From Candidatus Gottesmanbacteria bacterium (lineage in GTDB: Bacteria; Patescibacteriota; Microgenomatia; UBA10105; UBA927), in NCBI GenBank assembly GCA_963701185.1, contig OY969569.1:667548-731547 (forward strand): 64,000 nt of DNA. The letters run 5' to 3'. The translations under genes and the position numbers were made by a program. Below the pieces are notes generated by a model that saw nothing but the letters and a program-made list of their open reading frames with translations, did not search any database and was not told the DNA's origin. Below are positions 9,817 through 45,161 of the stretch, in pieces; position 1 is the first letter of the stretch, and every line of letters begins with the position of its first letter.

Positions 9817-9846
9817 TTGACAAACACAGCCTCTTCCCTTTTTAAT
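9817..9846 (+). promoter_or_regulatory. candidate sigma70-type promoter TTGACA-N18-TTTAAT for the giant gene
   Basis: TTGACA at 9817-9822 and TTTAAT at 9841-9846. The TTG that opens the ORF-track ORF at 9817 is this -35 hexamer. The first in-frame ATG downstream is at 9934. Confidence 0.35.
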
Positions 9847-9933
9847 AAGAGTAGGCCTAAATTCCCCGATGACATCTATAGACAAAGTAGTGACAACCGG
9901 AAGCCGGTTTTTGCTACGAAATTATTTTTTGGT

Positions 9934-22047
<12,114 letters not shown>

Positions 22048-22097: not shown

Positions 22098-24092
22098 ATG
22101 AAGCCTGCTCGGCTGTTTGGTGTTTTTTTTGGCGTCCTGTGTACTCTCCTGCTGGCATTCGTCTATACACAACGGAGTTATCTGCGCTTTCTCATCCCCG
22201 CACCGGCATTTGCCGCACCCAGTCCCGGCACCGCAAAGTTCGCCGGCAGTTATGCCACGTTTTCAGGGACACTGCGCGGGACGCAGTTTATCGATAATGA
22301 TAACAACGCGTACCTTCTGGACCCCAACGCCACCGGCAATTCTCTCCTCGTGGCCGGCTCCGTCGGCATTGGTACCACTGCCCCGGCGAGAAAACTTGAT
22401 ATTGTCCAATCATCTGATACGTATGCTGGTGGATTAGGCATTGCCAACTCCGCTATCACCAAAAGACTAACCTTATGGGTTGATACCAACAATGTCTCCC
22501 GAATAGAAGGCGGCGGTTTAGGAGATTCTATCGTCGCTATCAACGGCACCAGTACCGGTAACGTCGGCATCGGCACCACCGCTCCAGCCCAACCATTACA
22601 TGTTTTTGGATATAAAGGAGTTAGGTTGGAATCTGACGCTGCAGGCCAATATGGATTTATGAATAGCACCGGAAATTTACACCTCACGCAAAATGCATAT
22701 TATGATGGAGCCTCATGGAAATCAATCGCAGCAAGTCCAACTCTTGCTGCTGGCTTTCAAACCAACGTTGGTGGAACGGAAGCATTTAGGATATTCGCTG
22801 ATACGAGTATATCCGCAGCAAACGAGGTTCTAACTTTAGATCCCCTCATGGTGGTTAAAACGAACGGCAATGTCGGTATCGGCACCGCAGCCCCAGACAC
22901 ACCTTTACATGTTTTTAGCCCTACAGTAAATGGTGGAATTGCCACTTTTGATAATGCAGCAACTTCTACTCAATCATATTATAATTTTAAGGTGGCAGGC
23001 ACTCTTAGAGGTTCTTTGCGAATAGATAATGGCGGTAATTTTATTATAGATCCAACTGGTACGGGTGCAACGTATCTTAGTTGGGATAGTGGTAGTAACG
23101 GTGTAGTATTTGGCAATGGTTCTGGCGGCGCCGTCGGCTCTGTATCAGGTGGAGGCAATCTTTCGATGAATGGAACAGGTTACTTCGGAGGCAACGTCGG
23201 TATTGGAACAACAAATCCTACCTACACGTTAATGGTAACTGGCTCCACAGCAGGCAATATTACCTCAGGAAGCATAAACGTATTAAATACTGCATCAACG
23301 GGAAATTCTGGAGCCATTGTCAATATCGGGTCGAATTCTAGCTCGGGATATATCGGCGCCTTCAACTCAACTCACACATCAATTCCCCTTGCTGACCGCT
23401 TCGTCATAGCTCCAAATAGTATCGCGGCAGGTCTGACTATATACGCTTCTAATGCCGGTCAGGACATTCGATTCTTTTCCGGTTCAACCACTGAAACTAT
23501 GCGTATAGATAGTTCTGGGAAAGTCGGCATCGGCACCACCAGCCCCGGATATCTCCTTGACGTTAATGGTTCCATTAATATCGCCAACAGTGGATTATTA
23601 CGTATCGGCGGAAACACGGTCACTAATTCAGCAAATAACCGAATCAGTATGTATTATGTTGGTTGCGGCGCCTCTTGGAACAGTACGTGTGATAGTGGTT
23701 CTAGTGGATGGCCCGATTACGCTGACGCACTTCTTTCCGACAATAGACTCAAAACCATCACTAAACCTCTCGATAATGTTATGGATAAAATCATGCAGCT
23801 AAAACCCACGTACTACACATGGAACCAAAACTATGACGCTTTGGGTCTCCCTAATCACGGTCAGGAAATCGGCTTCATCGCCCAAGACGTTCAGCAACTC
23901 TTCCCTGAAATGGTCTACAATGCGGGCCCCAATGATCCCTATCTTCACCTAGATTACCAAAAAATGACCGCAGTCTTGGCTCAGGGCATCAAAGAACAGC
24001 AAGGGGAGATTGATGAATTGAAAAAAATGGTGGAAGATCAGGGGCAAATAATTCGTCAGCTGCAAACGGAAATCCGGCAGTTAAAAGAATAG
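22098..24092 (+). CDS. tail-fibre-like surface protein with C-terminal peptidase S74 / intramolecular chaperone auto-processing domain
   Basis: N-terminal signal/TM. Five repeats of the (N/S/K)VGIGTT(A/N/S)P....L.V motif. C-terminal LLSDNRLKTITKPLDNVMDKIMQLKPTYYTWN...IGFIAQDVQQLFPEMV matches the endosialidase-chaperone (S74) signature. Ends in a coiled-coil segment. Confidence 0.7.
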   Translation: MKPARLFGVFFGVLCTLLLAFVYTQRSYLRFLIPAPAFAAPSPGTAKFAGSYATFSGTLRGTQFIDNDNNAYLLDPNATGNSLLVAGSVGIGTTAPARKLDIVQSSDTYAGGLGIANSAITKRLTLWVDTNNVSRIEGGGLGDSIVAINGTSTGNVGIGTTAPAQPLHVFGYKGVRLESDAAGQYGFMNSTGNLHLTQNAYYDGASWKSIAASPTLAAGFQTNVGGTEAFRIFADTSISAANEVLTLDPLMVVKTNGNVGIGTAAPDTPLHVFSPTVNGGIATFDNAATSTQSYYNFKVAGTLRGSLRIDNGGNFIIDPTGTGATYLSWDSGSNGVVFGNGSGGAVGSVSGGGNLSMNGTGYFGGNVGIGTTNPTYTLMVTGSTAGNITSGSINVLNTASTGNSGAIVNIGSNSSSGYIGAFNSTHTSIPLADRFVIAPNSIAAGLTIYASNAGQDIRFFSGSTTETMRIDSSGKVGIGTTSPGYLLDVNGSINIANSGLLRIGGNTVTNSANNRISMYYVGCGASWNSTCDSGSSGWPDYADALLSDNRLKTITKPLDNVMDKIMQLKPTYYTWNQNYDALGLPNHGQEIGFIAQDVQQLFPEMVYNAGPNDPYLHLDYQKMTAVLAQGIKEQQGEIDELKKMVEDQGQIIRQLQTEIRQLKE

Positions 24093-24094: not shown

Positions 24095-24463
24095 ATGATG
24101 CCGAAAAAGGTTCTTATTATCCTACTGGCTATCCTGGGAATTGCCGCGTATGTTGCGGGATCTTTTTGGGTTATCGGCATTATGCAGGGCAAGGGCACAA
24201 CAGTACCGTTTATCCCAAAGCAAAATACTGCGGCAACGACGACAGATCTGCCGCAAGGCCCGATAGCCACACCAACACCCAAACCCACACCAACACCCAT
24301 GCCTACCCCGACCCCGCTGCAGGGCCCGGGCAGATATGCGTGTGATGCTGATGGGATATGCGGAGATTTCAGCGATGAGAGGCGCAAGTCCTGCCCCAAA
24401 ACATTTGCCGATCCCCATTGTCTGGGTATGTGCGCCGCCCAGTCCGTCCGCTGTTCACAATAA
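24095..24463 (+). CDS. small membrane-anchored/secreted protein with PT-linker and 6-Cys C-terminal module
   Basis: TM helix ILLAILGIAAYVAGSFWVIGI, TPTPKPTPTPMPTPTP linker and CDADGICGDFSDERRKSCPKTFADPHCLGMCAAQSVRC. Start overlaps the stop of the upstream gene. Confidence 0.4.
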   Translation: MMPKKVLIILLAILGIAAYVAGSFWVIGIMQGKGTTVPFIPKQNTAATTTDLPQGPIATPTPKPTPTPMPTPTPLQGPGRYACDADGICGDFSDERRKSCPKTFADPHCLGMCAAQSVRCSQ

Positions 24464-24464
24464 G

Positions 24465-24965
24465 TTAATCTGCGCAGACGCAGTACCGGCCGGTCGTACT
24501 GCAATTAGCGCCGCACGCTGATGCACATCTTGTTTGGCTGACGGCAATATCAGGATCAGATAAATTATCAAGTACCGCTCTGAGACAAAAATCATTACCG
24601 CCCGTTGTTTGATAATACATATAGGTGTTCGGTGATACCAAAAATCCCGCCGGAAGCGACTTCATATAGACAGCATCGCATGCAGCCCCTGAGGCAAACG
24701 TCCTCGTCCCCGTACAGGGACACGCATTCGTTCCCCCTGCACCGCACCCATTCATCACCATCCCCGTCGTACCTCCCGGGTAACTGTTGAAATCGTTGTA
24801 ATAGAGCCGTAAAGCAGTTTTCAGCTGGGCCATTTCCTGTTTTTTCTTCACGTCATTCGCCCGCTGGCGGGCCGAGAGGTAGTTGGGGATCGCCATCGCA
24901 ATAATAGAGGCAATGATGGCAATAACAACCAAAATTTCAATCAGGGTAAAGCCTGCTCTTTTCAT
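24465..24965 (-). CDS. type IV pilin / pseudopilin-like protein (prepilin N-terminus)
   Basis: MKRAGFTLIEILVVIAIIASIIA: class III signal with G|F cleavage site and Glu+5. Cys-rich C-terminus ending CVCAD. Confidence 0.7.
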   Translation of the reverse strand: MKRAGFTLIEILVVIAIIASIIAMAIPNYLSARQRANDVKKKQEMAQLKTALRLYYNDFNSYPGGTTGMVMNGCGAGGTNACPCTGTRTFASGAACDAVYMKSLPAGFLVSPNTYMYYQTTGGNDFCLRAVLDNLSDPDIAVSQTRCASACGANCSTTGRYCVCAD

Positions 24966-24980
24966 ATCATGATCGTATCA

Positions 24981-25502
24981 TTATGGACTTATATTTGCAC
25001 TGGACAATCCCCAATTACACGGCATTCCGGTTCCGCAGTTCGTCGGTGATGCCTCAGGCGTCATAATCGCCGGATCCTGGTTATTTTCCAAATGCGCGTA
25101 GATTTGATACTGCTTTCCCGCAGCATCGGAAACATAATAATATCTTTGCGTACTCACCGGGTCTGCCGGAAATTTCGCCATATATATCGCCCCATTGACG
25201 ACGGAATCCTTAAAGATGGGGTACTCCGTTCCGCATGATCCGGTATTTCCCAGAGCATTGTAGCAACCGGGAATCGATCCTGCTCCATCCCCTACCGGAT
25301 ACTTGCCTTTATCATTATAATACATTTCCACCGCATTGGTAATCGCCCGTACATTGGCTTTGCGTGTCGAATCCCGGCCTTTTCTCATCGAAGAGGTAAA
25401 CGCCCCTGCGCCGATCCCCAAAAGGATTGCAAGAAGTGCCATGACAACCAACAGCTCTATGAGTGTAAAACCTTGTTTTTGATTCATATCATCAGTATAC
25501 AC
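24981..25502 (-). CDS. type IV pilin-like protein
   Basis: NQKQGFTLIELLVVMALLAILLG prepilin N-terminus. Confidence 0.7.
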   Translation of the reverse strand: MYTDDMNQKQGFTLIELLVVMALLAILLGIGAGAFTSSMRKGRDSTRKANVRAITNAVEMYYNDKGKYPVGDGAGSIPGCYNALGNTGSCGTEYPIFKDSVVNGAIYMAKFPADPVSTQRYYYVSDAAGKQYQIYAHLENNQDPAIMTPEASPTNCGTGMPCNWGLSSANISP

Positions 25503-25504
25503 CG

Positions 25505-26203
25505 TTAATCAGCACAACGGTTTGCAATAATTGCACACGCTCCGGCCGGGCAATTTATTTCCCACGAAACCGGACAACCGTGCAATGACGGATCATCATA
25601 CCAATTACAATCCCCTCCCAATGTGCACGAAATATGATACACAGGATTAAGGGTTGGCGTGGGTGTTCCCCCGCCCCCGCCTCCGCCGCCTCCGGGTGTG
25701 GGGGTGCCTCCGCCGCCTCCGGGTGTGGGGGTGCCTCCGCCGATGATCTCATCCACCGTGCCTACGGCAGAGGCTGTGACGCCGGAAGCCAGGCAAAAAT
25801 TATATCCGCTGCCGAGGCCGCACCCTGCCGCGCCTCCACAATTCATCGCGGCAATGGCAGGATCCGTTGTGTCGGACAGCTTCGCACAAATTCTGTATCC
25901 TCCATTGACAGATGGAAAATACCCGTAATGCGTTTTGGATACCGGATCGCAGGGAATTCTTTTAATATATGGTTCCATCGCTCCTGCGCAATTGTTGACA
26001 ACGGATTGATTCGGAAATGCATCGTTATCATTACGATAGTCCTCAAAAAATTTACTCAGTATATAGATATCCGATTTCCGTTTTATATCGTTGGCCCGAG
26101 CCGTTTGACCACGGAGATTCATGAAAAGGACCATAGCCAGGAGGATAATGATGGTGACGACGATAAGAATCTCAAGAAGGGTAAAGCCTGCATGTTTTTT
26201 CAT
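25505..26203 (-). CDS. type IV pilin-like protein with Gly/Pro/Thr-rich linker and Cys-rich C-terminal domain
   Basis: Start taken at MKKHAGFTLLEILIVVTIIILLAM (ORF track starts 21 nt upstream). GGGTPTPGGGGG... linker. Seven Cys in the last 45 aa, ending RCAD. Confidence 0.65.
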   Translation of the reverse strand: MKKHAGFTLLEILIVVTIIILLAMVLFMNLRGQTARANDIKRKSDIYILSKFFEDYRNDNDAFPNQSVVNNCAGAMEPYIKRIPCDPVSKTHYGYFPSVNGGYRICAKLSDTTDPAIAAMNCGGAAGCGLGSGYNFCLASGVTASAVGTVDEIIGGGTPTPGGGGGTPTPGGGGGGGGGTPTPTLNPVYHISCTLGGDCNWYDDPSLHGCPVSWEINCPAGACAIIANRCAD

Positions 26204-26399
26204 GCTTCCCTTAGTATCACACATCAGGGGAAAAATGCAATCCCGTTATAGAGTATGGTTTGATACCTATTGTTCCATAATTTTTACCTTATTGATATTA
26301 AATAGTCTCTTGTACAACGTAACGATAAACTTGATATATTATCTATATAAATCACTATATATTTTATGTTCTCGCATTTACATTTGCGAAATATTCACT

Positions 26400-28169
26400 A
26401 TGATGAATACTATCATGGCGAAAAAAATTTCCATCGTTGTGCTGGGCCTTACTCCCCTCTTTTTCCTCCCCGTAACCCAAAATTTTTATGACACGAATAA
26501 GTGGATACTCCTGGGAATCGGAGGACTGCTCGTCCTGATTTTTTGGGCCATAACGCTGTTTCGGGTAAAAATGCCTCTACGAGCGGCATTTCCCTGGGGA
26601 TCTCTCGGATTCGCGGCATTGACAATCGCATCCTTCATCGGCCTTATCGCTGCTTCGACCAATAAAATCGAAGCTATTCTTTCACCGCTGGGGCCGATAA
26701 CGTTTCTTGCGCTCACTATCCTCATTCTGACCGCCTCTTCCATGACGAAACAGGACAAGGTGTACGTGAGATGGTTTCTCTACGGGATAATAGGGCTCTT
26801 GGGGCTTATCGCGCTGTACCAATTCCTTGGCATCAGGTATTTTTCTGACCCTTTGTGGACCCCGACCGGATCCGTCACCACCACAATTGTCCTGTTTTTT
26901 ATCACGCTGTCTCTCCTTATCCCCGATATCATCGCATCGTTCAAAAAACGTGAAGAGCATGGTACAACAGCATTTCTCATTATTTCTTGTATCATCATCG
27001 GAGTCGGCACAGGCATAACGCTCTTCCAATTCATTCCGAAAATACCCTCCCTTCTGCCGTTTGATGCTGGCATGATCGTGGCGTCCCAAATTTTCAAAAA
27101 TCCTACTGCTGCCGCTGTCGGTATCGGCACGGAAAACTTTGTTGCCGCCTTCACCGCGGCCAGACCTGCGAGCTTCAATACCGGACCGCTTGCCGCCGTG
27201 ACGTTTACGACGAACGCGGACTTTTTTCTCCATATCCTCACCGTCTATGGCCTTACCGGACTGGCTGCCGCATTGGTTCTTGCGGGTTCTCTTGTAACCG
27301 GAAACAAAAAAGACTGGCTTTTCTTCACTAAATGCATCTGTCTGGCAAGCTTACTGTTTATTCCGCCGACCATACCGCTTCTTGCCGTTATCGCAATCAT
27401 CCTTATCCTTGCGGAGGGAGAAAAAAATCCAAAATCGTTTGCTGTCAGGCCATCCTGGATCCGGATCCCGGCCGGCGCTCTGTTGATACTCGCGTCCTTA
27501 GCTTCGTTCTATTTTTTGGCCCGCGCATACGCGGCGGAACTATACTTTTTCCAATCACTGCAGGCGCTTGCGGCACATGACGGAACCAAAACGTATAACC
27601 AACAAATTCAGGCAATCCGGACCAATACGTTCTTAAGCCGATACCATGTTTCGTATAGCCAAACAAGTTTGGAGTTGGCCAACAGCATCGCCGGCTCTGA
27701 CAGCAAAAGCGACCAGGACCGGCAGCTGGTAGGACAACTTCTGCAACAATCCGTTAACGAAGCAAAAATTGCCGTTACGCTCAACCAACAAAACATCACT
27801 GCATGGGAAAACCTGGGTTTTACGTATCAAAATATTATTCCGGTCGCTTCGGAGGCCGCCAATTGGGCACTGACGGCCTACGGGTCTGCCATAAAATTGG
27901 ACCCGTCCAACCCCAATCTGTTCCTCAATATCGGCAGCGTCTTCATCGCCCAGAAACAGTACGATGATGCCATTGCCATGTTTATCCGGGCTATCCAGCT
28001 TAATCCGTCGTACGCTAACGCCTACTACAACCTGGCAAACGCGTACAAACTCAAAGGCGATACGGTTAATCAAGGAAAAGTCCTCACTGATACGCTGAAG
28101 CTCGTTGCTCCGGAAAGTTCGGATTATGCGAAAATCAAAAACGAACTGGATGCACTGGAAAAGAAATGA
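26400..28169 (+). CDS. O-antigen ligase (Wzy_C) family polytopic membrane protein with C-terminal TPR repeats (possible PglL/PilO-like O-oligosaccharyltransferase)
   Basis: Start at ATG 26400 (MMNTIMAKK). The 26121 start of the ORF-track ORF overlaps a pilin gene and AT-rich spacer. About 10 TM helices. NADFFLHILTVYGLTGL resembles the Wzy_C core (aHNdyLqilaElGiiG). C-terminal TPR-like repeats (AYYNLANAYKLKGD). Confidence 0.6.
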   Translation: MMNTIMAKKISIVVLGLTPLFFLPVTQNFYDTNKWILLGIGGLLVLIFWAITLFRVKMPLRAAFPWGSLGFAALTIASFIGLIAASTNKIEAILSPLGPITFLALTILILTASSMTKQDKVYVRWFLYGIIGLLGLIALYQFLGIRYFSDPLWTPTGSVTTTIVLFFITLSLLIPDIIASFKKREEHGTTAFLIISCIIIGVGTGITLFQFIPKIPSLLPFDAGMIVASQIFKNPTAAAVGIGTENFVAAFTAARPASFNTGPLAAVTFTTNADFFLHILTVYGLTGLAAALVLAGSLVTGNKKDWLFFTKCICLASLLFIPPTIPLLAVIAIILILAEGEKNPKSFAVRPSWIRIPAGALLILASLASFYFLARAYAAELYFFQSLQALAAHDGTKTYNQQIQAIRTNTFLSRYHVSYSQTSLELANSIAGSDSKSDQDRQLVGQLLQQSVNEAKIAVTLNQQNITAWENLGFTYQNIIPVASEAANWALTAYGSAIKLDPSNPNLFLNIGSVFIAQKQYDDAIAMFIRAIQLNPSYANAYYNLANAYKLKGDTVNQGKVLTDTLKLVAPESSDYAKIKNELDALEKK

Positions 28170-29743
28170 AACCGCTTGTTCTGACCGTCATCCTTTTTAT
28201 CCTGCAACTCGGATTATTTCTTTGGATTACCCTCCGGCCGTTTTCCATAAGCCCGCAAGGAAGTTCGTATTATGTCCTCCACGGACAGAGCGCGTACACG
28301 GCATATATACGTGAGTCCAAAGAAGGCGCATGGAAGGTCACGAATCCCTACACCACCCGGCCGAATCCGCCAATCTACGCGCATCTGTTTTATGTATTTT
28401 TAGGTAAAATTGCAGCGGTATTTTCGTTTGATACAATCGCCACCTCCATGGTAACCCATGTCGTTGCCGGCCTCATTCTTTTTCTTGCCACCTATTGGTG
28501 TATCGGCAAAATCCTTCCCGCAAATCTCCAAACACTTGCGGTTCTCTTCACCCTCGGATTGGAACCCGGCCCGCTAGTGTCAGAAATAAAAAATATCGCG
28601 TCACTGGCATTTGCGCGGCCCGTTATATTCAGCTTTTTCCCACAGGAAGTGGTACTGCGGCACTTCGGGCTCCCGCATCATGTTTTGGCGGAGGCACTCG
28701 GTTTATTGATACTGGGGAATGTCTTTTTATTTGTAAAAAGGGCGTCATGGCAGCGGTTGGCGGGTATCGCACTCCTTACTGTCGCCGGGACACTCATTAT
28801 GCCGGTATACAACAGTATCTTAATGCTGACAGTAGGCATTGCGTGGTTCGTATGGTCTCTTATACATGGCCACATCAAAAAAAATCTGCCGGCCTTTATC
28901 ACGATTTTTGTATGTTTTGGAGCCGCGGCACTATTTATTAAACTCCAAATGGACACGAGCTTCATGTGGAAAAATTATAGCCTGGACGAAAAACGCTGGG
29001 TGACGGATGGTGATATTGTTATCAATTACCTTTCGTCGCTCGTTCTGTACCTGCCGGCAATTGTATTCCTATGGGCGACACTGCTACGGCGCTCGTGGCA
29101 TCTGATGGTCGTACTGTTCACTACATGGATCGTAGGACCTCTTCTGTACATCCCCCTCACACATATGTCCCTCTTTCCGTTTGCCAATTTTCGGTTGGTG
29201 GACGGATATTCCTATGTTCCTGCAGGAATTCTGGCCGCCATGGGAATATCGGAAATCAGCCGTTTGAGCGGTAAAACCATCGCGAAGTTCGCCGTCATAC
29301 TCATGCTTGCCGCCTCACTGTTCCTCACGGTCAGCTATACGAGAAAAACGTTTGAAGACCAGCAGAGGATCTATACGAATGTCTATCTGTTGCGGGAGGA
29401 GTGGGATGCAATCCGCTTCCTTTCAACCATCCCGCGTCACAGTGGCGTTATGGTCATGAAATATGTCGGGGAGATTATTCCTGCGTACGACTCAGTGCGT
29501 GTTTTTCTGGGTGAAACTCCCGGCGCTCTCGACTGGCAGGAACGCTACGACATCGCCGTCCGGTTCTATTCCGGGCTCCTGACGGATAGTGAAGCACGCA
29601 CTATCCTCCGACAGGAAAATATTTCCTATGTTTATTGGGGACAGGATGAAAAAGTATTCTCAAAAACTCCGACACTGTACCCCAATGTCCTTATTCCTGT
29701 TTTCCAAAATCCCGCCGTTACTATTTTCGCGCAAAAACAATAA
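28166..29743 (+). CDS. large polytopic membrane protein, GT-C-like paralog family member
   Basis: Multi-TM N-terminal half. C-terminal ...ENISYVYWGQDEKVFSKTPTLYPNVLIPVFQNPAVTIFAQKQ motif shared with 32519..33751, 36545..38152 and 51996..54026. Confidence 0.5.
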   Translation: MKPLVLTVILFILQLGLFLWITLRPFSISPQGSSYYVLHGQSAYTAYIRESKEGAWKVTNPYTTRPNPPIYAHLFYVFLGKIAAVFSFDTIATSMVTHVVAGLILFLATYWCIGKILPANLQTLAVLFTLGLEPGPLVSEIKNIASLAFARPVIFSFFPQEVVLRHFGLPHHVLAEALGLLILGNVFLFVKRASWQRLAGIALLTVAGTLIMPVYNSILMLTVGIAWFVWSLIHGHIKKNLPAFITIFVCFGAAALFIKLQMDTSFMWKNYSLDEKRWVTDGDIVINYLSSLVLYLPAIVFLWATLLRRSWHLMVVLFTTWIVGPLLYIPLTHMSLFPFANFRLVDGYSYVPAGILAAMGISEISRLSGKTIAKFAVILMLAASLFLTVSYTRKTFEDQQRIYTNVYLLREEWDAIRFLSTIPRHSGVMVMKYVGEIIPAYDSVRVFLGETPGALDWQERYDIAVRFYSGLLTDSEARTILRQENISYVYWGQDEKVFSKTPTLYPNVLIPVFQNPAVTIFAQKQ

Positions 29744-30576
29744 GATCATCCCAGGGGTTTATCGGATTCTTCAATTTAAACCGGTCCAAAAATTTCCCGA
29801 TGGGTTGTAAAATCCCTGCTGCCCACGGGAAATAATCGGCCGCGCGGGTAAATACAAAAGATAACGGGAACGGCCGTGGTGAATCGGGGCGGATGATAAT
29901 ATTTCTGAATCCCGCCCGTTTAAAAAGTTCCCGTAAAGACTTTCTATCCCAAAATGTCACATGTTCCGGGTGATGATACCCTACCCACCATTTTCCCATC
30001 ATTTTTCGCCAAATGCTGTTATGATTCGGGGTTGTCAGGACGGCCTCACCGCCTTTATTGAGCAGTTTATATACCCGCTTCATCATGCCTAAGGGATTAC
30101 GCTCATGTTCGATGATTTCAAACGCGGTAACGACATCAAACTTCGATGTGGGCCATGTTTGAGAAACACGAAGTCCCCTTTTTTTGCAATAGGAAACTGC
30201 GTCTTTGGAAATATCTACCCCCTGCGCTCTTATCCCTACTTTTTTGGCTTCTTCCAGTAATACTCCCATGGCACAGCCGATATCAGTAATATTGGTCTGT
30301 CATTCCCGTGAGGCGGGAATTGTTATTGTTGTATTGTGAAAACTAATATCGATTCCTCACAGGCGCGGATGATAATTGAAGCGTTTTCCTAAAATATTCC
30401 CTATGCACGGGAATCTGGGCGATGTACGGCTCAAAATGCTCCAAATCTTCGTGATACAATTTTTCAATCTCTTTTTCACCGGGCATCGGCACCATCTGTA
30501 CCAATCCGCAGGTCGTACATTTTTTCAATCTATAAATAACGGAAAATCGGGTAGACCCGCACAATACGCACCTCAT
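29721..30576 (-). pseudogene. zinc-ribbon class I SAM methyltransferase interrupted by a ~70-bp hairpin-containing insertion (paralog of 31632..32522)
   Basis: 30343..30576 encodes the CxxC..CxxC zinc-ribbon plus EHFEPYI and ends in TAG. 29721..30269 encodes the MTase core. Motif I DIGCAMG sits immediately after an in-frame TGA with no upstream start. The intervening 30270-30342 contains hairpin ATTCCCG-tgagg-CGGGAAT. Confidence 0.5.
30302..30320. repeat. hairpin element ATTCCCG-N5-CGGGAAT (member of a small palindromic repeat family, cf. 45100-45161)
   Basis: 7-bp perfect inverted repeat, flanked by GTC at the 5' side as in the 45097 copy. Confidence 0.5.
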
Positions 30577-31586
30577 ATAGTCTTTTTTAACAGATAATAG
30601 GCCGCGCCCGCAAGAATAACGACATACAATACCAATCCGGCCCCCAACGCTTTCAGCATAAATCCACTCCCCTTCTCACGATAACAAAACCACAGAAACT
30701 TGCGAAGAAGAAGAATATGAAAAAGAAAAAGAACGGCGGCAGAGACGATCGTGACCATACGTACCCAGGAAAACGGCAACACAAAATACAGAAGTATCCC
30801 CATGACGATAATCCCCAGAGCTCCTACCCCCGCGGCGGCTGTCGCGGTCTCCGACATGGTGGTTGCGACTGTATCAAATTTTCGATGGGTGCCGTAGAGC
30901 TTCGTCCAGTAAAAACTGCGCCAGAAATATTTCCTGGCAACCGCAAAAAACCCTTCAAATTCATGGTGAACCCTCACATCAGGCGCGAAGATGATCGCAT
31001 AACGCTTGGCGATCCGGTACGTAAGCTCCACATCCTCCATCTGCCGGAACGCCTCGTTAAAACCTCCCAACCGGTCAAATACATCGCGGCGGATGGCGGC
31101 GTTCCTGGTGCTGAACAGGTAATAATATCCGTCGCGGTCGCGTTCGTTGGTCCAATAACTCCAGTCGCGCATGGCTTTAAATTGGGGGAAAAATGATGTG
31201 GTACGCTGGTGTTTATCCCACACGCCTGTCAGCGCAATCAAATCAGGGTCTTCACAAAATTTATTGGCAATATTGGTTAACGTATCGGGGTACACCGTCA
31301 CATCCGCATCCAAAAAAACTAATACCTCGCCCCGTGCCCGTTTCACGGCAGCATTGCGGGCTGCAGCCGGACCGCGGTTGTGTGTCAGGCGGGTAACAGT
31401 CAGCGGGAACCGCGGGCGGATGCCCTGAAGCTTCCTGACGGTCAGCTGCTCGTTTGATGCGTCATCACCGATAATCACTTCAAAGTTCTTATATGATGAC
31501 GTTGTGAGCGATCCCAGAAGCTTCCCGAGCGTTTCGCTTGCATTGTAGGCAGGGATGATAATCGAAAGATACGGTTTACCCCTCAT
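30573..31586 (-). CDS. family 2 glycosyltransferase with C-terminal TM segments
   Basis: LSIIIPAYN...IIGDDAS...DAD motifs of the GT2 (GT-A) fold. C-terminal membrane helices. Confidence 0.7.
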   Translation of the reverse strand: MRGKPYLSIIIPAYNASETLGKLLGSLTTSSYKNFEVIIGDDASNEQLTVRKLQGIRPRFPLTVTRLTHNRGPAAARNAAVKRARGEVLVFLDADVTVYPDTLTNIANKFCEDPDLIALTGVWDKHQRTTSFFPQFKAMRDWSYWTNERDRDGYYYLFSTRNAAIRRDVFDRLGGFNEAFRQMEDVELTYRIAKRYAIIFAPDVRVHHEFEGFFAVARKYFWRSFYWTKLYGTHRKFDTVATTMSETATAAAGVGALGIIVMGILLYFVLPFSWVRMVTIVSAAVLFLFHILLLRKFLWFCYREKGSGFMLKALGAGLVLYVVILAGAAYYLLKKTI

Positions 31587-31631
31587 GTCTTGTCTTTGTA
31601 TAGCGACGGAGAGAATAAGTCAAGAATGTAA

Positions 31632-32522
31632 TTATGCCTTAGCCGTTACGATCATAATATCAAGAGGAAGTGGAAACTGAAGATACGACAAAGGAGTGAT
31701 ACGGAATACTTTTTCGGCCCATACGCATAACCCCTTCGACCATGGGTGACCAACAACATGCATGACTCCACGGAAAAGAAAATGTATCGGGTACCAGCGC
31801 GTTTCGTCGCCCACAGAGCGGATATGATGAAATCCTGCTTTTTTCAAAAGCAACGTCATTGTCTCACGGGAAAAAAAGTACAGATGCTCCTGATGACGGT
31901 AATTACGCCAATGCTTTCCCAAAAGATGTTGCAGATACCCTCCCTCCCGCGGTGTTGAGAAAAGTATAACCCCGCCGGGTTTTATCACGCGGTGAATCTC
32001 GCGCAGGAACGCCAACGGGTCGGAAACGTGTTCGATAAGATGAAATCCTACCACGCCGTCGAAAGAATGCGACGGAAATTTCGCCCGAAATAGGTCTGTT
32101 GCGCGGGCATTGAGCCCCTGATTCTTCGCATACGCAACAGCCTCCCACGAGATATCGATGCCTATGCAGTCCAGATGTGCGCGTTTCGCCTCCTCAAGAA
32201 AAAATCCATACGATGAGCCGATTTCCAACACTTTCTTGCCGAGGAGAATCGTCCGTAAGAATGTAATTTTCCGCCTGAAATATGACAAAAGCAGTGGTTT
32301 CTCGGCCATATAGTCGTAATACCCCACGGATGACGCCGTTCGTGTTTTATCCGACGCAAAATAATTCTTGTTATACATCAGGGTAAGCTCATGATCCGTG
32401 GGCTGCGGATTAACATAGACAAGTCCGCAGCCGGCACAGCGGACAATCCGATGATGCGGCAGATTAAGATAAACCGTGTACGTGTCGTGTCCGCACAAGG
32501 GGCACACCATGTCGTTTTTCAT
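31632..32522 (-). CDS. class I SAM-dependent methyltransferase with N-terminal zinc-ribbon
   Basis: CPLCGHD...CAGCG zinc ribbon, then VLEIGSSYG (motif I) and IKPGGVILFSTP (post-II). Full-length counterpart of the disrupted gene at 29721..30576. Confidence 0.7.
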   Translation of the reverse strand: MKNDMVCPLCGHDTYTVYLNLPHHRIVRCAGCGLVYVNPQPTDHELTLMYNKNYFASDKTRTASSVGYYDYMAEKPLLLSYFRRKITFLRTILLGKKVLEIGSSYGFFLEEAKRAHLDCIGIDISWEAVAYAKNQGLNARATDLFRAKFPSHSFDGVVGFHLIEHVSDPLAFLREIHRVIKPGGVILFSTPREGGYLQHLLGKHWRNYRHQEHLYFFSRETMTLLLKKAGFHHIRSVGDETRWYPIHFLFRGVMHVVGHPWSKGLCVWAEKVFRITPLSYLQFPLPLDIMIVTAKA

Positions 32523-33751
32523 TCTTTAACCCTGTAGATCACGATACGCGGATTGTTATATACCGGTTGCAAAAATGGGTACACAGAATCAAGCGCACGA
32601 ATATGTGCCACTTCAGCCTCCTGGGGACCGAAGTACACGTACGATATTCCCGCGCCATGAATCCATCGTAGGGCAACATCCGGCTCCATAGTTCCCGCAA
32701 AAAAGGATTCCACGAGAGGTTTTTTCTCTTCATATTTCACGGTATTTGCGTGGCCGTAGTAGACCGTATTGCCGGCATACACCGGAATATAATTCCCGGT
32801 TGTTTGCATAGACAATACAACACTACTGCGGGGTGTTGTCGCTCCCAAAAAGGTCATCCCGGCGACAAAATCTTTCAGCGGGTACATCACATAACTGCCC
32901 GACGGCACGAGCGGAAGCGTTGCTACTATCTTGTGATCGACAAAATCACGTTGCCATAACCATGATGAATACATAATGCCCAAACCGACAACAATGACGA
33001 CGACTGCTATTGTTTTTGCTATAGCTTTTCCTACGTTACTTACGTCATTTAAGATACTTAGAAGATAAGCCGTCAGTATTGCCAATGGGACGTGCGGAAG
33101 CGTTTCCGCAAACCGGAGCGGATGCTGCTGCGGAATAAAATGAAATCCGATAAATATGGTAAAGAATGCAAGAATCCACGCCATTGCACTTTTAAGAGCC
33201 GTTTCTTTTTTGAAAAGTGCTACCACTAACCCGATAAGTCCCAACGGAAGTATCGGGCCGATAGCAAGAATATATTCCCACAGGTTAAAGGCAAGAGGGT
33301 TAAGGACATCAAATTCAACGAGCCGTTTCCAGGGATATATTGTGAGCATGAGGAAAAAATAAAGGACTGCCGGGATACTGATAACTCCGATAACCACCCG
33401 CGGCCAAAAAATCCGGTCAAATAGCCAAAGATACGCGCATGCCACAGCAACAACGGCCAGCCCCGGCGGATAGATGATGTACAAAAGTGACGCAAGACAT
33501 CCCAAAAAAATCCAGTTTCCCGACCGCGCAAGTGTTTTACGGCTTGACACCGCAATAATCAAAAAAATCATGAGAGCCTGACCGATAAGAATATGGGGAA
33601 TAAACGTAATCCGCTGGAGTGAATCCATGACTGAAAACCACGGCATGTACCCGCCCAATCGCCATCCGTCAAACGCCAAAACCAGTTTCGGCCATGTTGA
33701 GGCAGTCACGGCAAGTAAAAATCCGATGATCAGCCACCCTGCGGACGTCAA
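32519..33751 (-). CDS. polytopic membrane protein, GT-C-like paralog family member
   Basis: Multi-TM. C-terminal ...GISYVYFGPQEAEVAHIRALDSVYPFLQPVYNNPRIVIYRVKE motif. Confidence 0.5.
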   Translation of the reverse strand: MTSAGWLIIGFLLAVTASTWPKLVLAFDGWRLGGYMPWFSVMDSLQRITFIPHILIGQALMIFLIIAVSSRKTLARSGNWIFLGCLASLLYIIYPPGLAVVAVACAYLWLFDRIFWPRVVIGVISIPAVLYFFLMLTIYPWKRLVEFDVLNPLAFNLWEYILAIGPILPLGLIGLVVALFKKETALKSAMAWILAFFTIFIGFHFIPQQHPLRFAETLPHVPLAILTAYLLSILNDVSNVGKAIAKTIAVVVIVVGLGIMYSSWLWQRDFVDHKIVATLPLVPSGSYVMYPLKDFVAGMTFLGATTPRSSVVLSMQTTGNYIPVYAGNTVYYGHANTVKYEEKKPLVESFFAGTMEPDVALRWIHGAGISYVYFGPQEAEVAHIRALDSVYPFLQPVYNNPRIVIYRVKE

Positions 33752-36544: not shown

Positions 36545-38152
36545 TTATTGCACCTGATATATGATTGTCCCGCCTTTATTGTAGCGCGCCGTCAGGAAGG
36601 GATAATCCAGGGTTTGCTTTCCTGCTGCAAACATCTGTTCCTGCTCGGCATACACAACATACGATATACGTTCCCGCGTAAGAAAAGCCTTCGCATCGCT
36701 CTCTGACATTTCCCCGCTGTAAAATGCCGCGATGGACCGTTCCGTATTTTGTATGGTCGGGGGCTCAACAAGTCGGTACCACCAAGTTACGTAGGGGTGA
36801 TTACCTGAAAAAGCTGCGATGAGGGTGCCGGCGTAATATCCCGATAACACAACATCACTGGGCTTTGTATTGCGCTGAAGCCAAAAAACCCCATCCATGA
36901 CCGTTTTTTTCGGATACGCAAAATCAAAAAATTGCTCAAAACAGAAACACAGATGTTCACCCTTCCATACTGAAACATACGTGCCAATACTGGTGGAAAG
37001 AAGAACAGCTAAAACAGATACACATATCCATTTTTTTGCCCCGCGGGCAATGGTTGTTACACCAACCGCAGCAAGTATTCCGAACGCTACATAATATGGG
37101 GTGAGAAAATATCGGATGGCATTAATGTGCAGGAGCGGCGATAGAATAAACTCCCCGACCGGATGCATCACAAGCCATGTCCCCAACAACATGAGCAGTG
37201 GTTTTCCCTTCCGAATGACTGACGGCATGGCAAAAAATGATACAAGATACAGGATACCGACTGCGACAATATACTCAATCGGTGTGACGTGAAACGGATT
37301 GAGCTGTTCCATTCGTGCGGGTCTCATATCGCTCCACACAGTGGTCGATACGTAGTGTACGTAGAGTATGGGTGCGATGGTCACGGCTGCATAGGAAAAC
37401 AGTATTCCCGCCTTGATCATATCTATCCGCAGCCGCTTTGTCCGAAGATACGCCGATATGCTGTCAAACACCATGTACAACGGAAAACCTGATACGAAAA
37501 GTACGCTATCAGGCGCATACAGAAGGGACGCGGCTATGCCAAAAAGAAGTGAGAACAAAAACCCGCCCATTCTTTGTGGGTTTTCCAGCGTACGTGAAAG
37601 AAAAAGGAGTGAAAGGAGAACTGCTCCCGCGCCCAACACATAATGAGGCATCGCTTGAGTCAGCCGCTGGAATACCTGCGCATCATACATTCCGCTGGTA
37701 ACAATCCTGTTTGGTATACCTGGTAGAGTCATACCCGCCCCAAATATCACGAAGATAAAACTGATGATCCGTTGCCAGCGTTCCCGAAAAACACTGCGGA
37801 TTACCAAATATATGACTGCAAGAACACACAGAGAGATTATAAATCTGCTGATTATGAACATGGGGAGTGGGAAAATGTTGAACGCCCTCCCCAGAATCCC
37901 GATAAGCGTATATTCCATTTTTACTATGGACGGATGACCTCCGAGCGTCGTGCTGTAGTTAACAGAAGGAAGGAGATTCCCATGATACCCCTGCTGGATA
38001 TATGCAAGGTCTCCCAGCATATCAATGGGATACTCCAACTGCCCGAAATAAAATCTATCCGGCGGTGCCGCCTGAAAGTTCTGTACGATGGGAGCATACG
38101 AAAAAAACAGCAGGAGAACGGTAGCAAGGACAATAAATATATGCGTTTTCAT
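36545..38152 (-). CDS. large polytopic membrane protein, GT-C-like paralog family member
   Basis: Start taken at MKTHIFIVLATVLLLFF (ATG 38152) inside ORF 36545..38548. C-terminal ...ERISYVVYAEQEQMFAAGKQTLDYPFLTARYNKGGTIIYQVQ motif. Confidence 0.55.
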   Translation of the reverse strand: MKTHIFIVLATVLLLFFSYAPIVQNFQAAPPDRFYFGQLEYPIDMLGDLAYIQQGYHGNLLPSVNYSTTLGGHPSIVKMEYTLIGILGRAFNIFPLPMFIISRFIISLCVLAVIYLVIRSVFRERWQRIISFIFVIFGAGMTLPGIPNRIVTSGMYDAQVFQRLTQAMPHYVLGAGAVLLSLLFLSRTLENPQRMGGFLFSLLFGIAASLLYAPDSVLFVSGFPLYMVFDSISAYLRTKRLRIDMIKAGILFSYAAVTIAPILYVHYVSTTVWSDMRPARMEQLNPFHVTPIEYIVAVGILYLVSFFAMPSVIRKGKPLLMLLGTWLVMHPVGEFILSPLLHINAIRYFLTPYYVAFGILAAVGVTTIARGAKKWICVSVLAVLLSTSIGTYVSVWKGEHLCFCFEQFFDFAYPKKTVMDGVFWLQRNTKPSDVVLSGYYAGTLIAAFSGNHPYVTWWYRLVEPPTIQNTERSIAAFYSGEMSESDAKAFLTRERISYVVYAEQEQMFAAGKQTLDYPFLTARYNKGGTIIYQVQ

Positions 38153-38349
38153 TATATGGAGATGATTGCGGGGGTATGGTGTATGTATTGCTTTTGGTGA
38201 TGTACGAGCAAGTTGTTCCGCAGCCTCTTCTCTACGGCCGTTGTGTATATACGTGTCGATAAACTCCTGGCGGATAGTTTCTTTGGAAACGGGTTGGGTA
38301 CGGGTATTCATATACCTCGAAAGGAAAACGGACAGTGACCGGTCTCCTG

Positions 38350-45087: not shown

Positions 45088-45099
45088 TTTTGGGTTGTC

Positions 45100-45161
45100 A
45101 TTCCCGCGCAGGCGGGAATCGGTATTTGTTTTGAACGCAGATCCCCGATCAAGTCGGGGAT
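45100..45161. repeat. two tandem hairpins ATTCCCGC-gcag-GCGGGAAT and ATCCCCGA-tcaag-TCGGGGAT
   Basis: Two perfect 8-bp inverted repeats 21 nt apart, in the intergenic region just upstream of the 45172 start. Same family as the 30302-30320 element. Confidence 0.5.

What the first reader, a model, noticed from the sequence alone, without database searches (positions are those of the whole stretch)
24095..28169. Three Cys-rich type IV pilins next to a Wzy_C/TPR membrane protein suggest a pilin O-glycosylation (PglL/PilO-like) module
Seen in sequence: three consecutive minus-strand genes start with canonical prepilin N-termini (K/Q-x-G|FTL(I/L)E(I/L)L(V/I)V, with Glu+5). All carry Cys-rich C-terminal domains and two end in C-x-CAD. 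Divergently adjacent is a ~590-aa polytopic protein whose NADFFLHILTVYGLTGL segment fits the Wzy_C (O-antigen ligase) core, followed by TPR repeats. Established: pilin O-oligosaccharyltransferases (PilO/TfpO, PglL) are Wzy_C-family proteins and pilO lies next to pilA in Pseudomonas. Inference: these pilins may be glycosylated, using sugars from the GT / FdtA / DegT / GNAT cluster at 29.7-42.6 kb.
Basis: partly seen in the sequence, partly recalled or inferred. Interest (0 to 1): 0.55.

Follow-up and report, generated by a model that had tools for sequence, protein, structure and literature searches.

The report
Pilin trio beside divergent ligase-like membrane protein
Three pilus-subunit genes in an uncultured ultra-small (CPR) bacterium sit back-to-back with a two-gene operon for outward-facing membrane sugar-transfer enzymes, a conserved pairing that suggests surface-fibre glycosylation, but the supposed "PglL-like" enzyme lacks the residues such enzymes need.

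Summary
The sequence facts hold. Three minus-strand prepilins (24465-26203) lie divergent to a 589-aa protein (26400-28169) with 11 TM helices and an outward-facing TPR domain. The organism is a Gottesmanbacteria-like CPR bacterium.

The Wzy_C call is only half right. Pfam gives no Wzy_C or PglL hit. Profile methods do place the protein at the fringe of the Wzy_C superfamily (hhalign 92.7%, E 4e-7). However, the Arg/Arg/His residues essential in WaaL and PglL are not conserved; the His is Ala here.

Linkage to these pilin types is real. It occurs in 16 of 80 related loci, in about five different gene orders. A wider partner is a giant tail-fibre/collagen-like surface protein, found in 34 of 80 loci.

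It is translationally coupled and belongs to an undescribed family with a GT-C glycosyltransferase fold (best matches STT3/AglB/PglB). The window holds about eight GT-C-like proteins. Its FdtA/DegT sugar operon contains an ArnC/PgfS-like GT2, which fits the GT-C route better than en-bloc PglL transfer.

Verdict: a probable surface-protein glycosylation module, not a canonical PglL/PilO system. Which enzyme touches the pilins is unresolved.

The parts
24465..24965 (-). Prepilin 1. It is 166 aa with 10 Cys. Its C-terminus Y-x-x-C-[AS]-D is conserved in orthologues.
   Evidence: N_methyl 28.6 bits and GspG-type hits. Orthologue alignment.
24981..25487 (-). Prepilin 2. It is about 168 aa from MNQKQG|FTL and has 4 conserved Cys. 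A conserved C-N-[YW]-G-x-S-S/T-x-N tail follows the last Cys.
   Evidence: N_methyl 37.9 bits and T2SSG 23.1 bits. Orthologue alignment.
25505..26203 (-). Prepilin 3, a modular pilin of 232 aa. It consists of a pilin core, a Gly/Thr/Pro linker (GGGTPTPGGGGGTPTP...TPTPT) and a Cys-rich C-terminal module of about 45 aa.
   Evidence: The linker and Cys module are conserved in 10 orthologues.
26204..26399 (.). AT-rich divergent intergenic region between the pilin operon and the membrane-protein operon. It contains promoter-like hexamers on both strands.
   Evidence: Sequence and consensus scan. These are consensus matches only.
26400..28169 (+). Wzy_C-superfamily-like polytopic membrane protein of 589 aa. 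It has 11 TM helices, a cytoplasmic N-terminus and a large outer loop at residues 214-274. An extracytoplasmic TPR domain starts at about residue 395.
28166..29743 (+). GT-C-fold membrane glycosyltransferase of an undescribed CPR family (525 aa). Its start overlaps the stop of the previous gene (ATGA).
   Evidence: No Pfam or NCBIfam hit for it or for its 46 homologues. The AF2 model has pLDDT 88. Foldseek matches STT3/AglB/PglB, AftA, DPY19 and ArnT at E 1e-8 to 1e-4 with TM 0.5-0.58.
24095..24463 (+). Small membrane-anchored protein of 122 aa. It consists of a TM helix, a TPTPKPTPTPMPTPTP linker and a 6-Cys module resembling the C-terminal module of pilin-3 orthologues.
   Evidence: tblastn matches pilin-3 orthologues in L001, L008 and L012 at 42-45% identity. 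The in-window match is weak (E 0.029). It is called as a gene in public data.
9817..22047 (+). Giant surface-fibre protein of 4076 aa. It has two HTH_17/MerR domains, a TM helix, about 2,700 aa of collagen-like G-x-T/S repeats, and a C-terminal region ending ...FNWWIVN with a K1-lyase_C domain. It is the widest conserved neighbour of the Wzy-like gene.
   Evidence: C-terminal region homologues lie next to the Wzy-like gene in 34 of 80 loci.
22098..24092 (+). Tail-fibre-like surface protein of 664 aa with a C-terminal Peptidase_S74 intramolecular-chaperone domain.
   Evidence: Pfam 2.3e-15. PHROG tail-fibre families at E down to 2e-24.
29721..32522 (-). Convergent block of a SAM methyltransferase (split into 29721-30269 and 30343-30576), a membrane GT2 (30573-31586) and a second methyltransferase (31632-32522). 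The block is conserved downstream of the Wzy-like gene in related loci.
   Evidence: Pfam. The GT2 lies next to the Wzy-like gene in 13 of 80 loci.

Best explanation
The locus is a conserved cell-surface appendage and glycosylation module of a Microgenomates (Gottesmanbacteria-like) CPR bacterium.

Components:
- A three-gene prepilin operon. One member is a modular pilin with a Thr/Pro/Gly linker and a Cys-knot-like tip.
- A divergently transcribed two-gene operon. The first gene encodes an 11-TM, Wzy_C-superfamily-like protein whose TPR domain faces outward. The second encodes a translationally coupled GT-C-fold glycosyltransferase of a new family.

Proposed mechanism (inferred):
- Both enzymes act on the outer face of the membrane using polyprenol-linked sugars.
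- The TPR domain captures exported, still membrane-anchored substrates: prepilins held by their N-terminal helix, and the giant TM-anchored fibre.
- Sugars are attached to the Thr/Pro/Gly-rich segments of these substrates.

The Wzy-like protein is not a canonical PglL/PilO/WaaL enzyme, because the Arg/Arg/His set is missing. If it is catalytic, it must use other conserved outer-loop residues: K34, N88/K89/E91, the W-T-P-x-G loop, G241-x-G243-x-x-N-F, R/K255-P256 and N260.

What is shown: gene structures, topology, fold, remote homology and conserved linkage.
What is inferred: glycosylation itself, the acceptor, and which enzyme does what.
For: Prepilins:
- They are verified.

Remote Wzy_C homology:
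- phmmer to Wzy_C-positive relatives gives E 1e-37 to 1e-7.
- P0057 passes the Pfam cut-off at 39.0 bits against 31.7.
- The profile reaches TPR-less 'O-antigen ligase' proteins at E 9e-13.
- hhalign gives 92.7%, E 4e-7, over 249 columns.
- 10 of 70 diverse family representatives hit Wzy_C.

Topology:
- The protein has 11 TM helices with an outward TPR domain, judged from the positive-inside distribution and a pLDDT 92 model.

Linkage:
- Prepilin motifs occur at 0.25 per kb per locus within 2 kb upstream. Beyond 3 kb there is one in about 630 kb.
- The same three pilin families flank the gene in 16 of 80 loci. The arrangements are a divergent triplet, a convergent triplet and three same-strand forms.
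- The fibre-protein gene lies directly upstream in 34 of 80 loci. In L063 and L077 it overlaps the start of the Wzy-like gene.

GT-C partner:
- At least 17 of its 46 homologues appear to share a contig with a Wzy-like homologue. This is inferred from matching contig lengths.

Acceptor-like sequences:
- TPTP/G linkers are conserved in all 10 pilin-3 orthologues.
- The fibre has G-P-T-G-S-T repeats.

Precedents:
- TfpW has 11 TM helices and a periplasmic TPR domain, lies next to pilA and glycosylates pilin (bioRxiv 10.1101/2020.04.19.049825).
- WsfB combines Wzy_C with a TPR motif and is the predicted S-layer O-OTase of a monoderm (PMC2943079).
- 21 of 31 PglL homologues lie next to pilin genes (PMC3643930).
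Against: - There is no direct Wzy_C or PglL_A HMM hit.
- The WaaL H338 column is A/S/L/F/Y in every family member. R215 aligns to a gap and R288 is not conserved.
- The window's own clade has also lost three residues that are near-invariant in the family: W225 to M, W265 to A, and R268 to T. This could mean altered or lost activity.
- No initiating phosphoglycosyltransferase or flippase was found in the window.
- Many relatives have neither pilin nor fibre neighbours. In those loci the gene sits in a conserved LeuRS-ComEA/ComEC backbone, so part of the adjacency may be inherited synteny.
- There are no glycosylation data for any CPR pilin (PMC11623550 reports predictions only).
Confidence: 0.4

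Rival explanations
1. The GT-C enzymes perform the protein O-glycosylation. Candidates are the coupled 525-aa protein and its paralogues, the YfhO/PgfM1-like protein and the PMT_2 protein. They would be fed by the ArnC/PgfS-like GT2 in the FdtA-GT2-DegT operon. This would resemble the streptococcal Pgf system or actinobacterial PMT. Under this view the Wzy-like/TPR protein is a polymerase or ligase for a cell-surface glycopolymer, and it sits near pilins only because this is a surface-structure island.
For: - The 525-aa protein has a GT-C fold whose best matches are protein-glycosylating enzymes.
- About eight GT-C-like proteins lie between 28 and 57 kb.
- The 228-aa GT2 hits ArnC, AglJ, PgfS and PpgS, and overlaps both FdtA and DegT.
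- Pgf-type GT2 plus GT-C systems glycosylate Ser/Thr-rich regions of monoderm surface proteins (PMC5856776; bioRxiv 10.1101/2024.05.05.592596).
- Wzy polymerases do not need the WaaL His.
Against: - Pilin adjacency follows the Wzy-like gene, not the 525-aa GT-C. L004, L013, L058, L044, L057 and L070 keep pilins next to the Wzy-like gene without that GT-C.
- An extracytoplasmic TPR domain suggests a protein partner.
- No conserved EL1 acidic residue was seen in the 525-aa family.
Confidence: 0.3
2. The Wzy-like/TPR protein is a non-catalytic membrane scaffold or chaperone. Having lost the WaaL/PglL catalytic residues, it uses its outward TPR domain to dock, stabilise or anchor pilins and the giant fibre during assembly.
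For: - The catalytic R/R/H set is absent.
- The window's clade has further lost W225, W265 and R268.
- All 70 representatives keep the TPR domain.
- The gene is translationally coupled to fibre genes in L063 and L077.
Against: Many polar and glycine residues in the outer loops are conserved across about 1,500 clusters defined at 50% identity: K34, N88, the WTPxG loop, GxGxxNF, R/K255-P and N260. This is the pattern of an active site or lipid-linked-substrate site rather than a passive scaffold. The gene is also conserved next to a membrane GT2 and methyltransferases.
Confidence: 0.12
3. A canonical PglL/PilO-type pilin O-oligosaccharyltransferase. It would transfer an Und-PP-linked oligosaccharide en bloc to pilin Ser/Thr by the WaaL/PglL mechanism, using sugars from the 29.7-42.6 kb cluster.
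For: - It is a Wzy_C-superfamily member next to pilin genes.
- A nucleotide-sugar cluster is present.
Against: - The catalytic Arg/Arg/His set is not conserved.
- There is no PglL_A hit.
- There is no PGT or Wzx in the window.
- The cluster's GT2 is of the polyprenyl-phosphate monosaccharide type.
- Pilin 1 lacks the C-terminal Ser/Thr that TfpO uses.
Confidence: 0.08
4. There is no functional link. The adjacency would reflect inherited gene order in small CPR genomes, with the LeuRS to Wzy-like interval acting as an insertion hotspot for surface-protein genes.
For: - The LeuRS-ComEA/ComEC backbone is conserved, and the interval before the Wzy-like gene has variable content.
- Many loci lack pilins and fibres.
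Against: - The same pilin families appear on both sides and in both orientations in distant relatives at 27-32% identity.
- Stop/start overlaps with fibre genes occur.
- Enrichment over the flanking background is about 150-fold.
Confidence: 0.1

Closest known systems
TfpW of Pseudomonas aeruginosa group IV (Pa5196/PA7), a pilin D-arabinofuranosyl transferase
   Same: The architecture and context are almost identical. [quoted passage not shown] Its gene is next to the pilin gene. It modifies pilin Ser/Thr using polyprenol-phosphate-linked sugar (bioRxiv 10.1101/2020.04.19.049825).
   Different: TfpW is assigned to GT-C through a DDX motif in loop 1. This family instead has a D/E-x-x-K motif (FYDTNKW) and profile-level Wzy_C homology. 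Sequence homology to TfpW could not be tested because no sequence was available. The host here is a monoderm CPR bacterium and the gene is divergent to three pilins.
PglL (Neisseria), TfpO/PilO (P. aeruginosa 1244), and PglS/TfpM (Moraxellaceae): Wzy_C-family O-oligosaccharyltransferases
   Same: They share the Wzy_C superfamily, the polytopic topology with a large outer loop, and frequent adjacency to pilin genes (21 of 31 PglL homologues, PMC3643930).
   Different: The residues conserved in PglL and WaaL (R224, R298 and H349 in PglL; R215, R288 and H338 in WaaL) are absent. There is no PglL_A motif and no direct Pfam Wzy_C hit. No Und-PP-glycan assembly genes were seen nearby.
WsfB, the predicted S-layer protein O-oligosaccharyltransferase of Paenibacillus alvei
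   Same: It combines a Wzy_C domain with a C-terminal TPR motif in a monoderm, and is predicted to act on a surface protein (PMC2943079).
   Different: WsfB carries a recognisable Wzy_C domain and sits in an S-layer glycan locus. Homology to it was not tested here.
Pgf system of Streptococcus mutans (PgfS GT2 with PgfM1/M2 GT-C), and GtrB/GT-C three-component glycosylation in general
   Same: A GT2 makes a polyprenyl-phosphate sugar, and GT-C enzymes transfer it outside the cell to Ser/Thr-rich regions of surface adhesins (PMC5856776). The window has an ArnC/PgfS-like GT2 and many GT-C proteins.
   Different: This applies to the neighbouring GT-C genes, not to the Wzy-like protein. All matches are far below family cut-offs.

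Membership tests
Type IV prepilin / pseudopilin (class III signal peptide) | A G at -1, F at +1 and E at +5 motif, followed by a hydrophobic helix (Pfam N_methyl PF07963) | tested here: met
   All three ORFs score above the curated cut-off (28.6, 37.9 and 25.6 bits against 21.2). TIGR02532 and GspG-type hits support this.
Type IV prepilin / pseudopilin (class III signal peptide) | A cognate prepilin peptidase and an assembly ATPase/platform (PilD, PilB, PilC) in the genome | tested here: inconclusive
   None was found among the window's ORFs. The rest of the roughly 1 Mb genome was not available.
Wzy_C (PF04932) superfamily | A direct Pfam HMM hit at or above the gathering score | tested here: not met
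   The query has no hit at E<=0.1. Only 10 of 70 family representatives hit at E<=1e-3. P0057 passes at 39.0 bits against 31.7.
Wzy_C (PF04932) superfamily | Profile-level homology to canonical members over the core TM helices, outer loop and G-x-G...(H)N-x-x-L...G-x-x-G motif | tested here: met
   hhalign gives 92.7%, E 4.3e-7, over 249 columns against canonical Wzy_C proteins. The profile hits 'O-antigen ligase' proteins P0129 to P0131 at E 9e-13 to 1e-5.
WaaL / PglL-type ligase or O-oligosaccharyltransferase | Conserved catalytic Arg, Arg and His (E. coli WaaL R215, R288, H338; PglL R224, R298, H349; PMC3643930) | tested here: not met
   In an alignment with E. coli K-12 WaaL, the H338 column is A/S/L/F/Y in all 21 family members (Ala273 in the query). 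R215 aligns to a gap and R288 is not conserved.
WaaL / PglL-type ligase or O-oligosaccharyltransferase | The PglL-specific motif (Pfam PglL_A, PF15864) | tested here: not met
   No hit in the query or in 70 representatives.
WaaL / PglL-type ligase or O-oligosaccharyltransferase | A gene adjacent to its pilin substrate gene (typical, not universal) | tested here: met
   A divergent pilin triplet is present here and in 10 related loci. Five further loci have other arrangements.
WaaL / PglL-type ligase or O-oligosaccharyltransferase | An Und-PP-oligosaccharide donor pathway (initiating phosphoglycosyltransferase and Wzx flippase) | tested here: inconclusive
   Pfam and NCBIfam found none in the 64 kb window. 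The whole genome was not examined.
WaaL / PglL-type ligase or O-oligosaccharyltransferase | Demonstrated glycan on the pilin | not testable with these tools
   This needs mass spectrometry. CPR pilin glycosylation has only been predicted so far (PMC11623550).
TfpW-like pilin glycosyltransferase (polytopic protein with periplasmic TPR) | A cytoplasmic N-terminus, 11 TM helices and a large extracytoplasmic C-terminal TPR domain, encoded next to a pilin gene | tested here: met
   Hydropathy, positive-inside distribution and the AF2 model. TPR Pfam hits. Adjacency.
TfpW-like pilin glycosyltransferase (polytopic protein with periplasmic TPR) | A DDX motif in the first periplasmic loop, and sequence homology to TfpW | not tested
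   No TfpW sequence was available. Loop 1 here reads FYDTNKW, with D or E in 48 of 70 and K in 67 of 70 representatives, and has no DD.
GT-C fold glycosyltransferase (for the 525-aa neighbour) | A GT-C membrane fold | tested here: met
   Foldseek against PDB matches STT3, AglB, PglB, AftA, DPY19, ALG12 and ArnT at E 1e-8 to 1e-4, with TM-score 0.5-0.58 over the whole protein. The model has pLDDT 88.
GT-C fold glycosyltransferase (for the 525-aa neighbour) | A conserved acidic catalytic residue in the first external loop, and for oligosaccharyltransferases (OSTs) the WWDYG motif | tested here: not met
   No residue conserved at 90% or more in EL1 is acidic. The sequence has no WWD motif. It is therefore not an OST proper, and the catalytic residues are unknown.

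The most novel reading that the evidence does not exclude
The Wzy-like/TPR proteins are a large CPR-specific family, with about 1,500 clusters (50% identity) at E<=1e-30. They could be a new class of outward-facing protein-modifying transferase that has replaced the WaaL/PglL Arg/Arg/His chemistry with a different conserved set (K34, N88/K89/E91, R/K255, N260). In this reading the TPR domain selects membrane-tethered fibre and pilin substrates, and the enzyme works in tandem with a previously undescribed GT-C family. This would be the first dedicated appendage-glycosylation system of ultra-small episymbiotic bacteria.
Probability: 0.2. Interest if true: 0.7.

Novelty: new variant of a known kind. 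Interest (0 to 1): 0.45.

Why it matters
CPR/Patescibacteria depend on type IV pili and surface fibres to find and attach to host cells, yet nothing is known experimentally about how these appendages are modified. This locus makes several things testable.
- A concrete gene set links pilins and giant collagen-like or tail-fibre-like proteins to two uncharacterised families of outward-facing membrane enzymes.
- The Wzy_C-like family lacks the canonical catalytic residues. If it is active, it would widen the mechanistic range of the WaaL/PglL/Wzy superfamily.
- The new GT-C family would add to the GT-C repertoire.
- The result also warns against annotating such genes as 'O-antigen ligase' or 'PglL' from motif resemblance alone.

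Tried and rejected
- A TM-domain profile searched against PDB sequences gave 0 hits at E<=10, so no sequence route to the WaaL structure exists.
- Prophage reading of the tail-fibre-like genes (Peptidase_S74, PHROG tail-fibre hits, K1-lyase_C). I rejected this as the main explanation. No other phage functions occur nearby, and the fibre to Wzy-like arrangement is conserved chromosomal synteny across Microgenomates.
- TfpO-like modification of a C-terminal Ser. Pilin 1 orthologues end in C-A/S-D and mostly lack a terminal Ser/Thr. Pilin 2 has a conserved S-S/T-x-N tail that remains a speculative site.
- N-glycosylation by the OST-like GT-C. There is no WWDYG motif, and N-x-S/T sequons in the pilin-2 tail are present in only about half of the orthologues.
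- Generic 'PilF/PilW/TadD' names given to homologues by some sources. These are TPR-only matches far below the family cut-offs.
- Organism name or annotation from cluster look-up and contig look-up. Neither source gave a name or an accession, and only a 4.5 kb contig could be read.

Full report
**What is in the sequence**

The region contains three consecutive minus-strand ORFs with textbook class-III signal peptides:
- pilin 1, 24465-24965, MKRAG|FTLIEILVV
- pilin 2, 24981-25487, MNQKQG|FTLIELLVV
- pilin 3, 25505-26203, MKKHAG|FTLLEILIV

All three pass Pfam N_methyl above its curated cut-off and match GspG/pilin NCBIfam models. A regular-expression scan finds no other prepilin motif in the 64 kb window. 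They carry 10, 4 and 12 cysteines. Only pilin 1 ends in C-x-CAD; pilin 3 ends in RCAD.

An AT-rich gap of about 195 bp separates them from a divergent gene. That gene's real start is the ATG at 26400, giving 589 aa identical to database protein P0001. It has about 11 TM helices followed by a TPR domain. An AlphaFold model built on 39 homologues is confident (pLDDT 92).

The distribution of Lys and Arg puts the N-terminus inside the cell. The large 214-274 loop and the whole TPR domain then lie outside (sequence reading). Close homologues are annotated Candidatus Gottesmanbacteria, which belongs to the Microgenomates within the CPR.

**Is it Wzy_C?**

The direct answer is no. Pfam and NCBIfam give only TPR hits at E<=0.1, with no Wzy_C, PglL_A or O-antigen_lig hit.

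Remote homology is nevertheless solid:
- phmmer links the TM domain to relatives that carry Wzy_C, at E 1e-37 to 1e-7.
- One of these, P0057, exceeds the Pfam gathering score (39.0 against 31.7 bits). Four others fall just below it.
- A profile of the TM domain reaches TPR-less proteins named O-antigen ligase at E 9e-13.
- hhalign of the query's own subfamily against canonical Wzy_C proteins gives 92.7% probability, E 4e-7, over 249 columns.
- An exhaustive search finds 1,476 clusters (50% identity) at E<=1e-30 and about 10,000 at E<=1e-3. Nearly all are 600-700 aa long.
- All 70 sampled representatives have TPR repeats, but only 10 have a detectable Wzy_C match.

This is therefore a large, uncharacterised family at the fringe of the Wzy_C superfamily.

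**Catalytic residues**

The segment NADFFLHILTVYGLTGL does align with the Wzy_C core motif (HAHNYYLNIAAEAGLLGL). The alignment included E. coli K-12 WaaL and canonical Wzy_C proteins.
- The column of the essential His (WaaL H338, PglL H349) is Ala273 in the query. It is A/S/L/F/Y in all 21 family members aligned.
- WaaL R215 aligns to a gap.
- R288 has no conserved counterpart.

These three residues are the ones reported as essential in WaaL and conserved in PglL (PMC3643930).

The family conserves a different outer-face set: K34, N88/K89/E91, W-T-P-x-G, G241-x-G243-x-x-N-F, R/K255-P256, N260, W265 and R268-F269. The window's own clade has additionally lost W225, W265 and R268. The protein therefore cannot be filed as a PglL, PilO or WaaL enzyme, although it may work like one.

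**Is the pilin adjacency meaningful?**

I fetched 80 genomic loci encoding relatives at 27-42% identity.
- Prepilin motifs occur at 0.25 per kb per locus within 2 kb upstream of the gene. Beyond 3 kb there is one in roughly 630 kb.
- The same divergent triplet is present in 10 other loci. The gene sizes are about 210-260, 165-173 and 150-170 aa, and the three pilin families are orthologous.
- Five more loci carry the same pilin families in other arrangements:
  - a convergent triplet downstream (L046)
  - a pilin-1-type gene 64 bp upstream on the same strand (L044)
  - a pilin-3-type gene 8 bp upstream (L057)
  - a pilin-3-type gene with one intervening gene (L055)
  - pilin-2-type and pilin-1-type genes upstream on the same strand (L070)

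This variety argues for a functional link rather than a single inherited arrangement.

**A wider partner**

The C-terminal region of the 4076-aa ORF upstream (9817-22047) has homologues next to the Wzy-like gene in 34 of 80 loci. They usually lie directly upstream on the same strand, and in L063 and L077 they overlap its start codon.

This protein has the following layout:
- two HTH_17/MerR domains at the N-terminus
- one TM helix
- about 2,700 residues of collagen-like G-x-T/S repeats
- a C-terminus with a K1-lyase_C domain, ending FNWWIVN

It is followed by a tail-fibre-like protein with a Peptidase_S74 domain.

In the Gottesmanbacteria-like clade the pilin triplet sits between the fibre genes and the Wzy-like gene. 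Loci lacking both pilins and fibres place the gene in a conserved LeuRS-ComEA/ComEC backbone. Part of the adjacency may therefore be inherited synteny.

The next gene (28166-29743) starts on the stop codon of the Wzy-like gene. Neither it nor any of its 46 homologues has a Pfam or NCBIfam match. Its model (pLDDT 88) has a GT-C fold. The best matches are STT3, AglB and PglB oligosaccharyltransferases, AftA, DPY19, ALG12 and ArnT (E 1e-8 to 1e-4, TM 0.5-0.58). It lacks the WWDYG motif and a conserved acidic residue in loop 1.

Two paralogues share its C-terminal motif, at 32519-33751 and 36545-38548. With a 628-aa NPCBM protein, a YfhO/PgfM1-like protein, DUF2298 and PMT_2, the window holds about eight GT-C-like proteins.

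However, the GT2 wedged between FdtA and DegT best matches ArnC, AglJ, PgfS and PpgS-type polyprenyl-phosphate sugar synthases. This points to monosaccharide donors for GT-C enzymes rather than an Und-PP-oligosaccharide for a PglL-type enzyme. No initiating phosphoglycosyltransferase or Wzx flippase was detected in the window.

**Candidate acceptors**

Pilin 3 is a modular pilin. Its core is followed by a Gly/Thr/Pro linker (TPTP motifs) and a 6-Cys module. Both are conserved in all ten orthologues.

The 122-aa plus-strand ORF at 24095-24463 has a TM anchor, a TPTPKPTPTP linker and a related Cys module. Pilin 2 orthologues share an S-S/T-x-N tail after the last Cys. The fibre is made of G-P-T-G-S-T repeats. 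These are the kinds of sequences that O-glycosylation systems target, but no modification is shown here.

**Most likely mechanism (confidence 0.4)**

I read the locus as an outward-facing, polyprenol-dependent glycosylation module for membrane-tethered surface-appendage proteins. The TPR domain of the Wzy-like protein would recruit pilins and fibres. The Wzy-like protein, the coupled GT-C enzyme, or both would attach the sugars.

The closest architectural precedent is TfpW of P. aeruginosa. It has 11 TM helices and a periplasmic TPR domain, is encoded next to pilA and is required for pilin glycosylation (bioRxiv 10.1101/2020.04.19.049825). A second precedent is WsfB, which combines Wzy_C with a TPR motif and is the predicted S-layer O-OTase of a monoderm (PMC2943079).

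The rivals are:
- GT-C enzymes glycosylate the proteins, and the Wzy-like protein polymerises or ligates a glycopolymer (0.3).
- The Wzy-like protein is a non-catalytic TPR scaffold (0.12).
- The adjacency is inherited synteny only (0.1).

**Limits**

- The TM-domain fold could not be compared with WaaL.
- The rest of the genome, including pilBCD, a PGT and flippases, was not examined.
- No experimental glycosylation data exist for CPR pilins (PMC11623550).

**Verdict**

A pilin-linked member of the Wzy_C superfamily is present, but it is not PglL/PilO-like in its defining residues.
- The glycosylation enzyme and the sugar route remain open.
- If glycosylation is confirmed, this would be a new variant of a known kind of system.

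Noticed in passing
window 9817-22047 (+): A giant 4076-aa ORF with an odd architecture. It has two cytoplasmic HTH_17/MerR DNA-binding domains, a Pro-rich segment, one TM helix, about 2,700 aa of collagen-like G-x-T/S repeats (65% GC against 47% nearby), and a C-terminal K1-lyase_C domain ending FNWWIVN. Relatives in other loci start with an integrase-SAM-like N-terminal domain instead.
   Followed up: partly
window 15487-15955: Inside the giant ORF, about 470 nt are read out of frame, giving '[15 protein letters not shown]...'. The +1 frame reads uninterrupted collagen repeats across this stretch. This implies two compensating frameshifts, which are either assembly indels or real.
   Followed up: partly
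window 29721-30576, 41504-42578 and 3856-5577: Several genes look split. A methyltransferase is in two pieces (77 aa and 182 aa) where the L001 orthologue is 310 aa. DegT is in two overlapping ORFs. ComEC is separated into a Competence domain ORF and a Lactamase_B ORF. Together with the giant-ORF frameshifts, this suggests indel errors in a long-read assembly (995 kb contig).
   Followed up: partly
window 22098-24092 (+): A 664-aa tail-fibre-like protein with a C-terminal Peptidase_S74 intramolecular-chaperone domain and strong PHROG tail-fibre hits. It lies in a chromosomal context with no other phage genes.
   Followed up: partly
window 28166-29743, 32519-33751 and 36545-38548: Three paralogous polytopic proteins share a C-terminal motif (ISYVY...YP.L.PVY.N..V.IY.V). 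None has a Pfam or NCBIfam match. The first has a GT-C fold, so this is apparently an undescribed CPR GT-C family.
   Followed up: partly
window 43201-56838: Further GT-C-like membrane proteins lie in a row. They are a 628-aa protein with a C-terminal NPCBM domain, a YfhO/PgfM1-like 760-aa protein, a DUF2298 (chlor_Arch_YYY) 676-aa protein and a PMT_2 531-aa protein. Rho and an M23/LysM peptidase are interspersed.
   Followed up: no
window 57565-60044: Adjacent proteins carry a dockerin type I domain (with DUF4434) and a cohesin domain. This is a possible cohesin-dockerin surface pairing in a CPR genome.
   Followed up: no
L009 935-3010 and 6243-8243: One related genome carries two paralogues of the Wzy-like/TPR gene about 3 kb apart. 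Many homologues also end in a Pro/Thr-rich tail after the TPR domain, which the window protein lacks.
   Followed up: no
Loci L001, L003, L005 and others (record titles): Many public MAG records that carry this CPR-type locus are titled 'uncultured Gammaproteobacteria' or 'Pseudomonadales'. This looks like taxonomic mislabelling of Patescibacteria bins.
   Followed up: no
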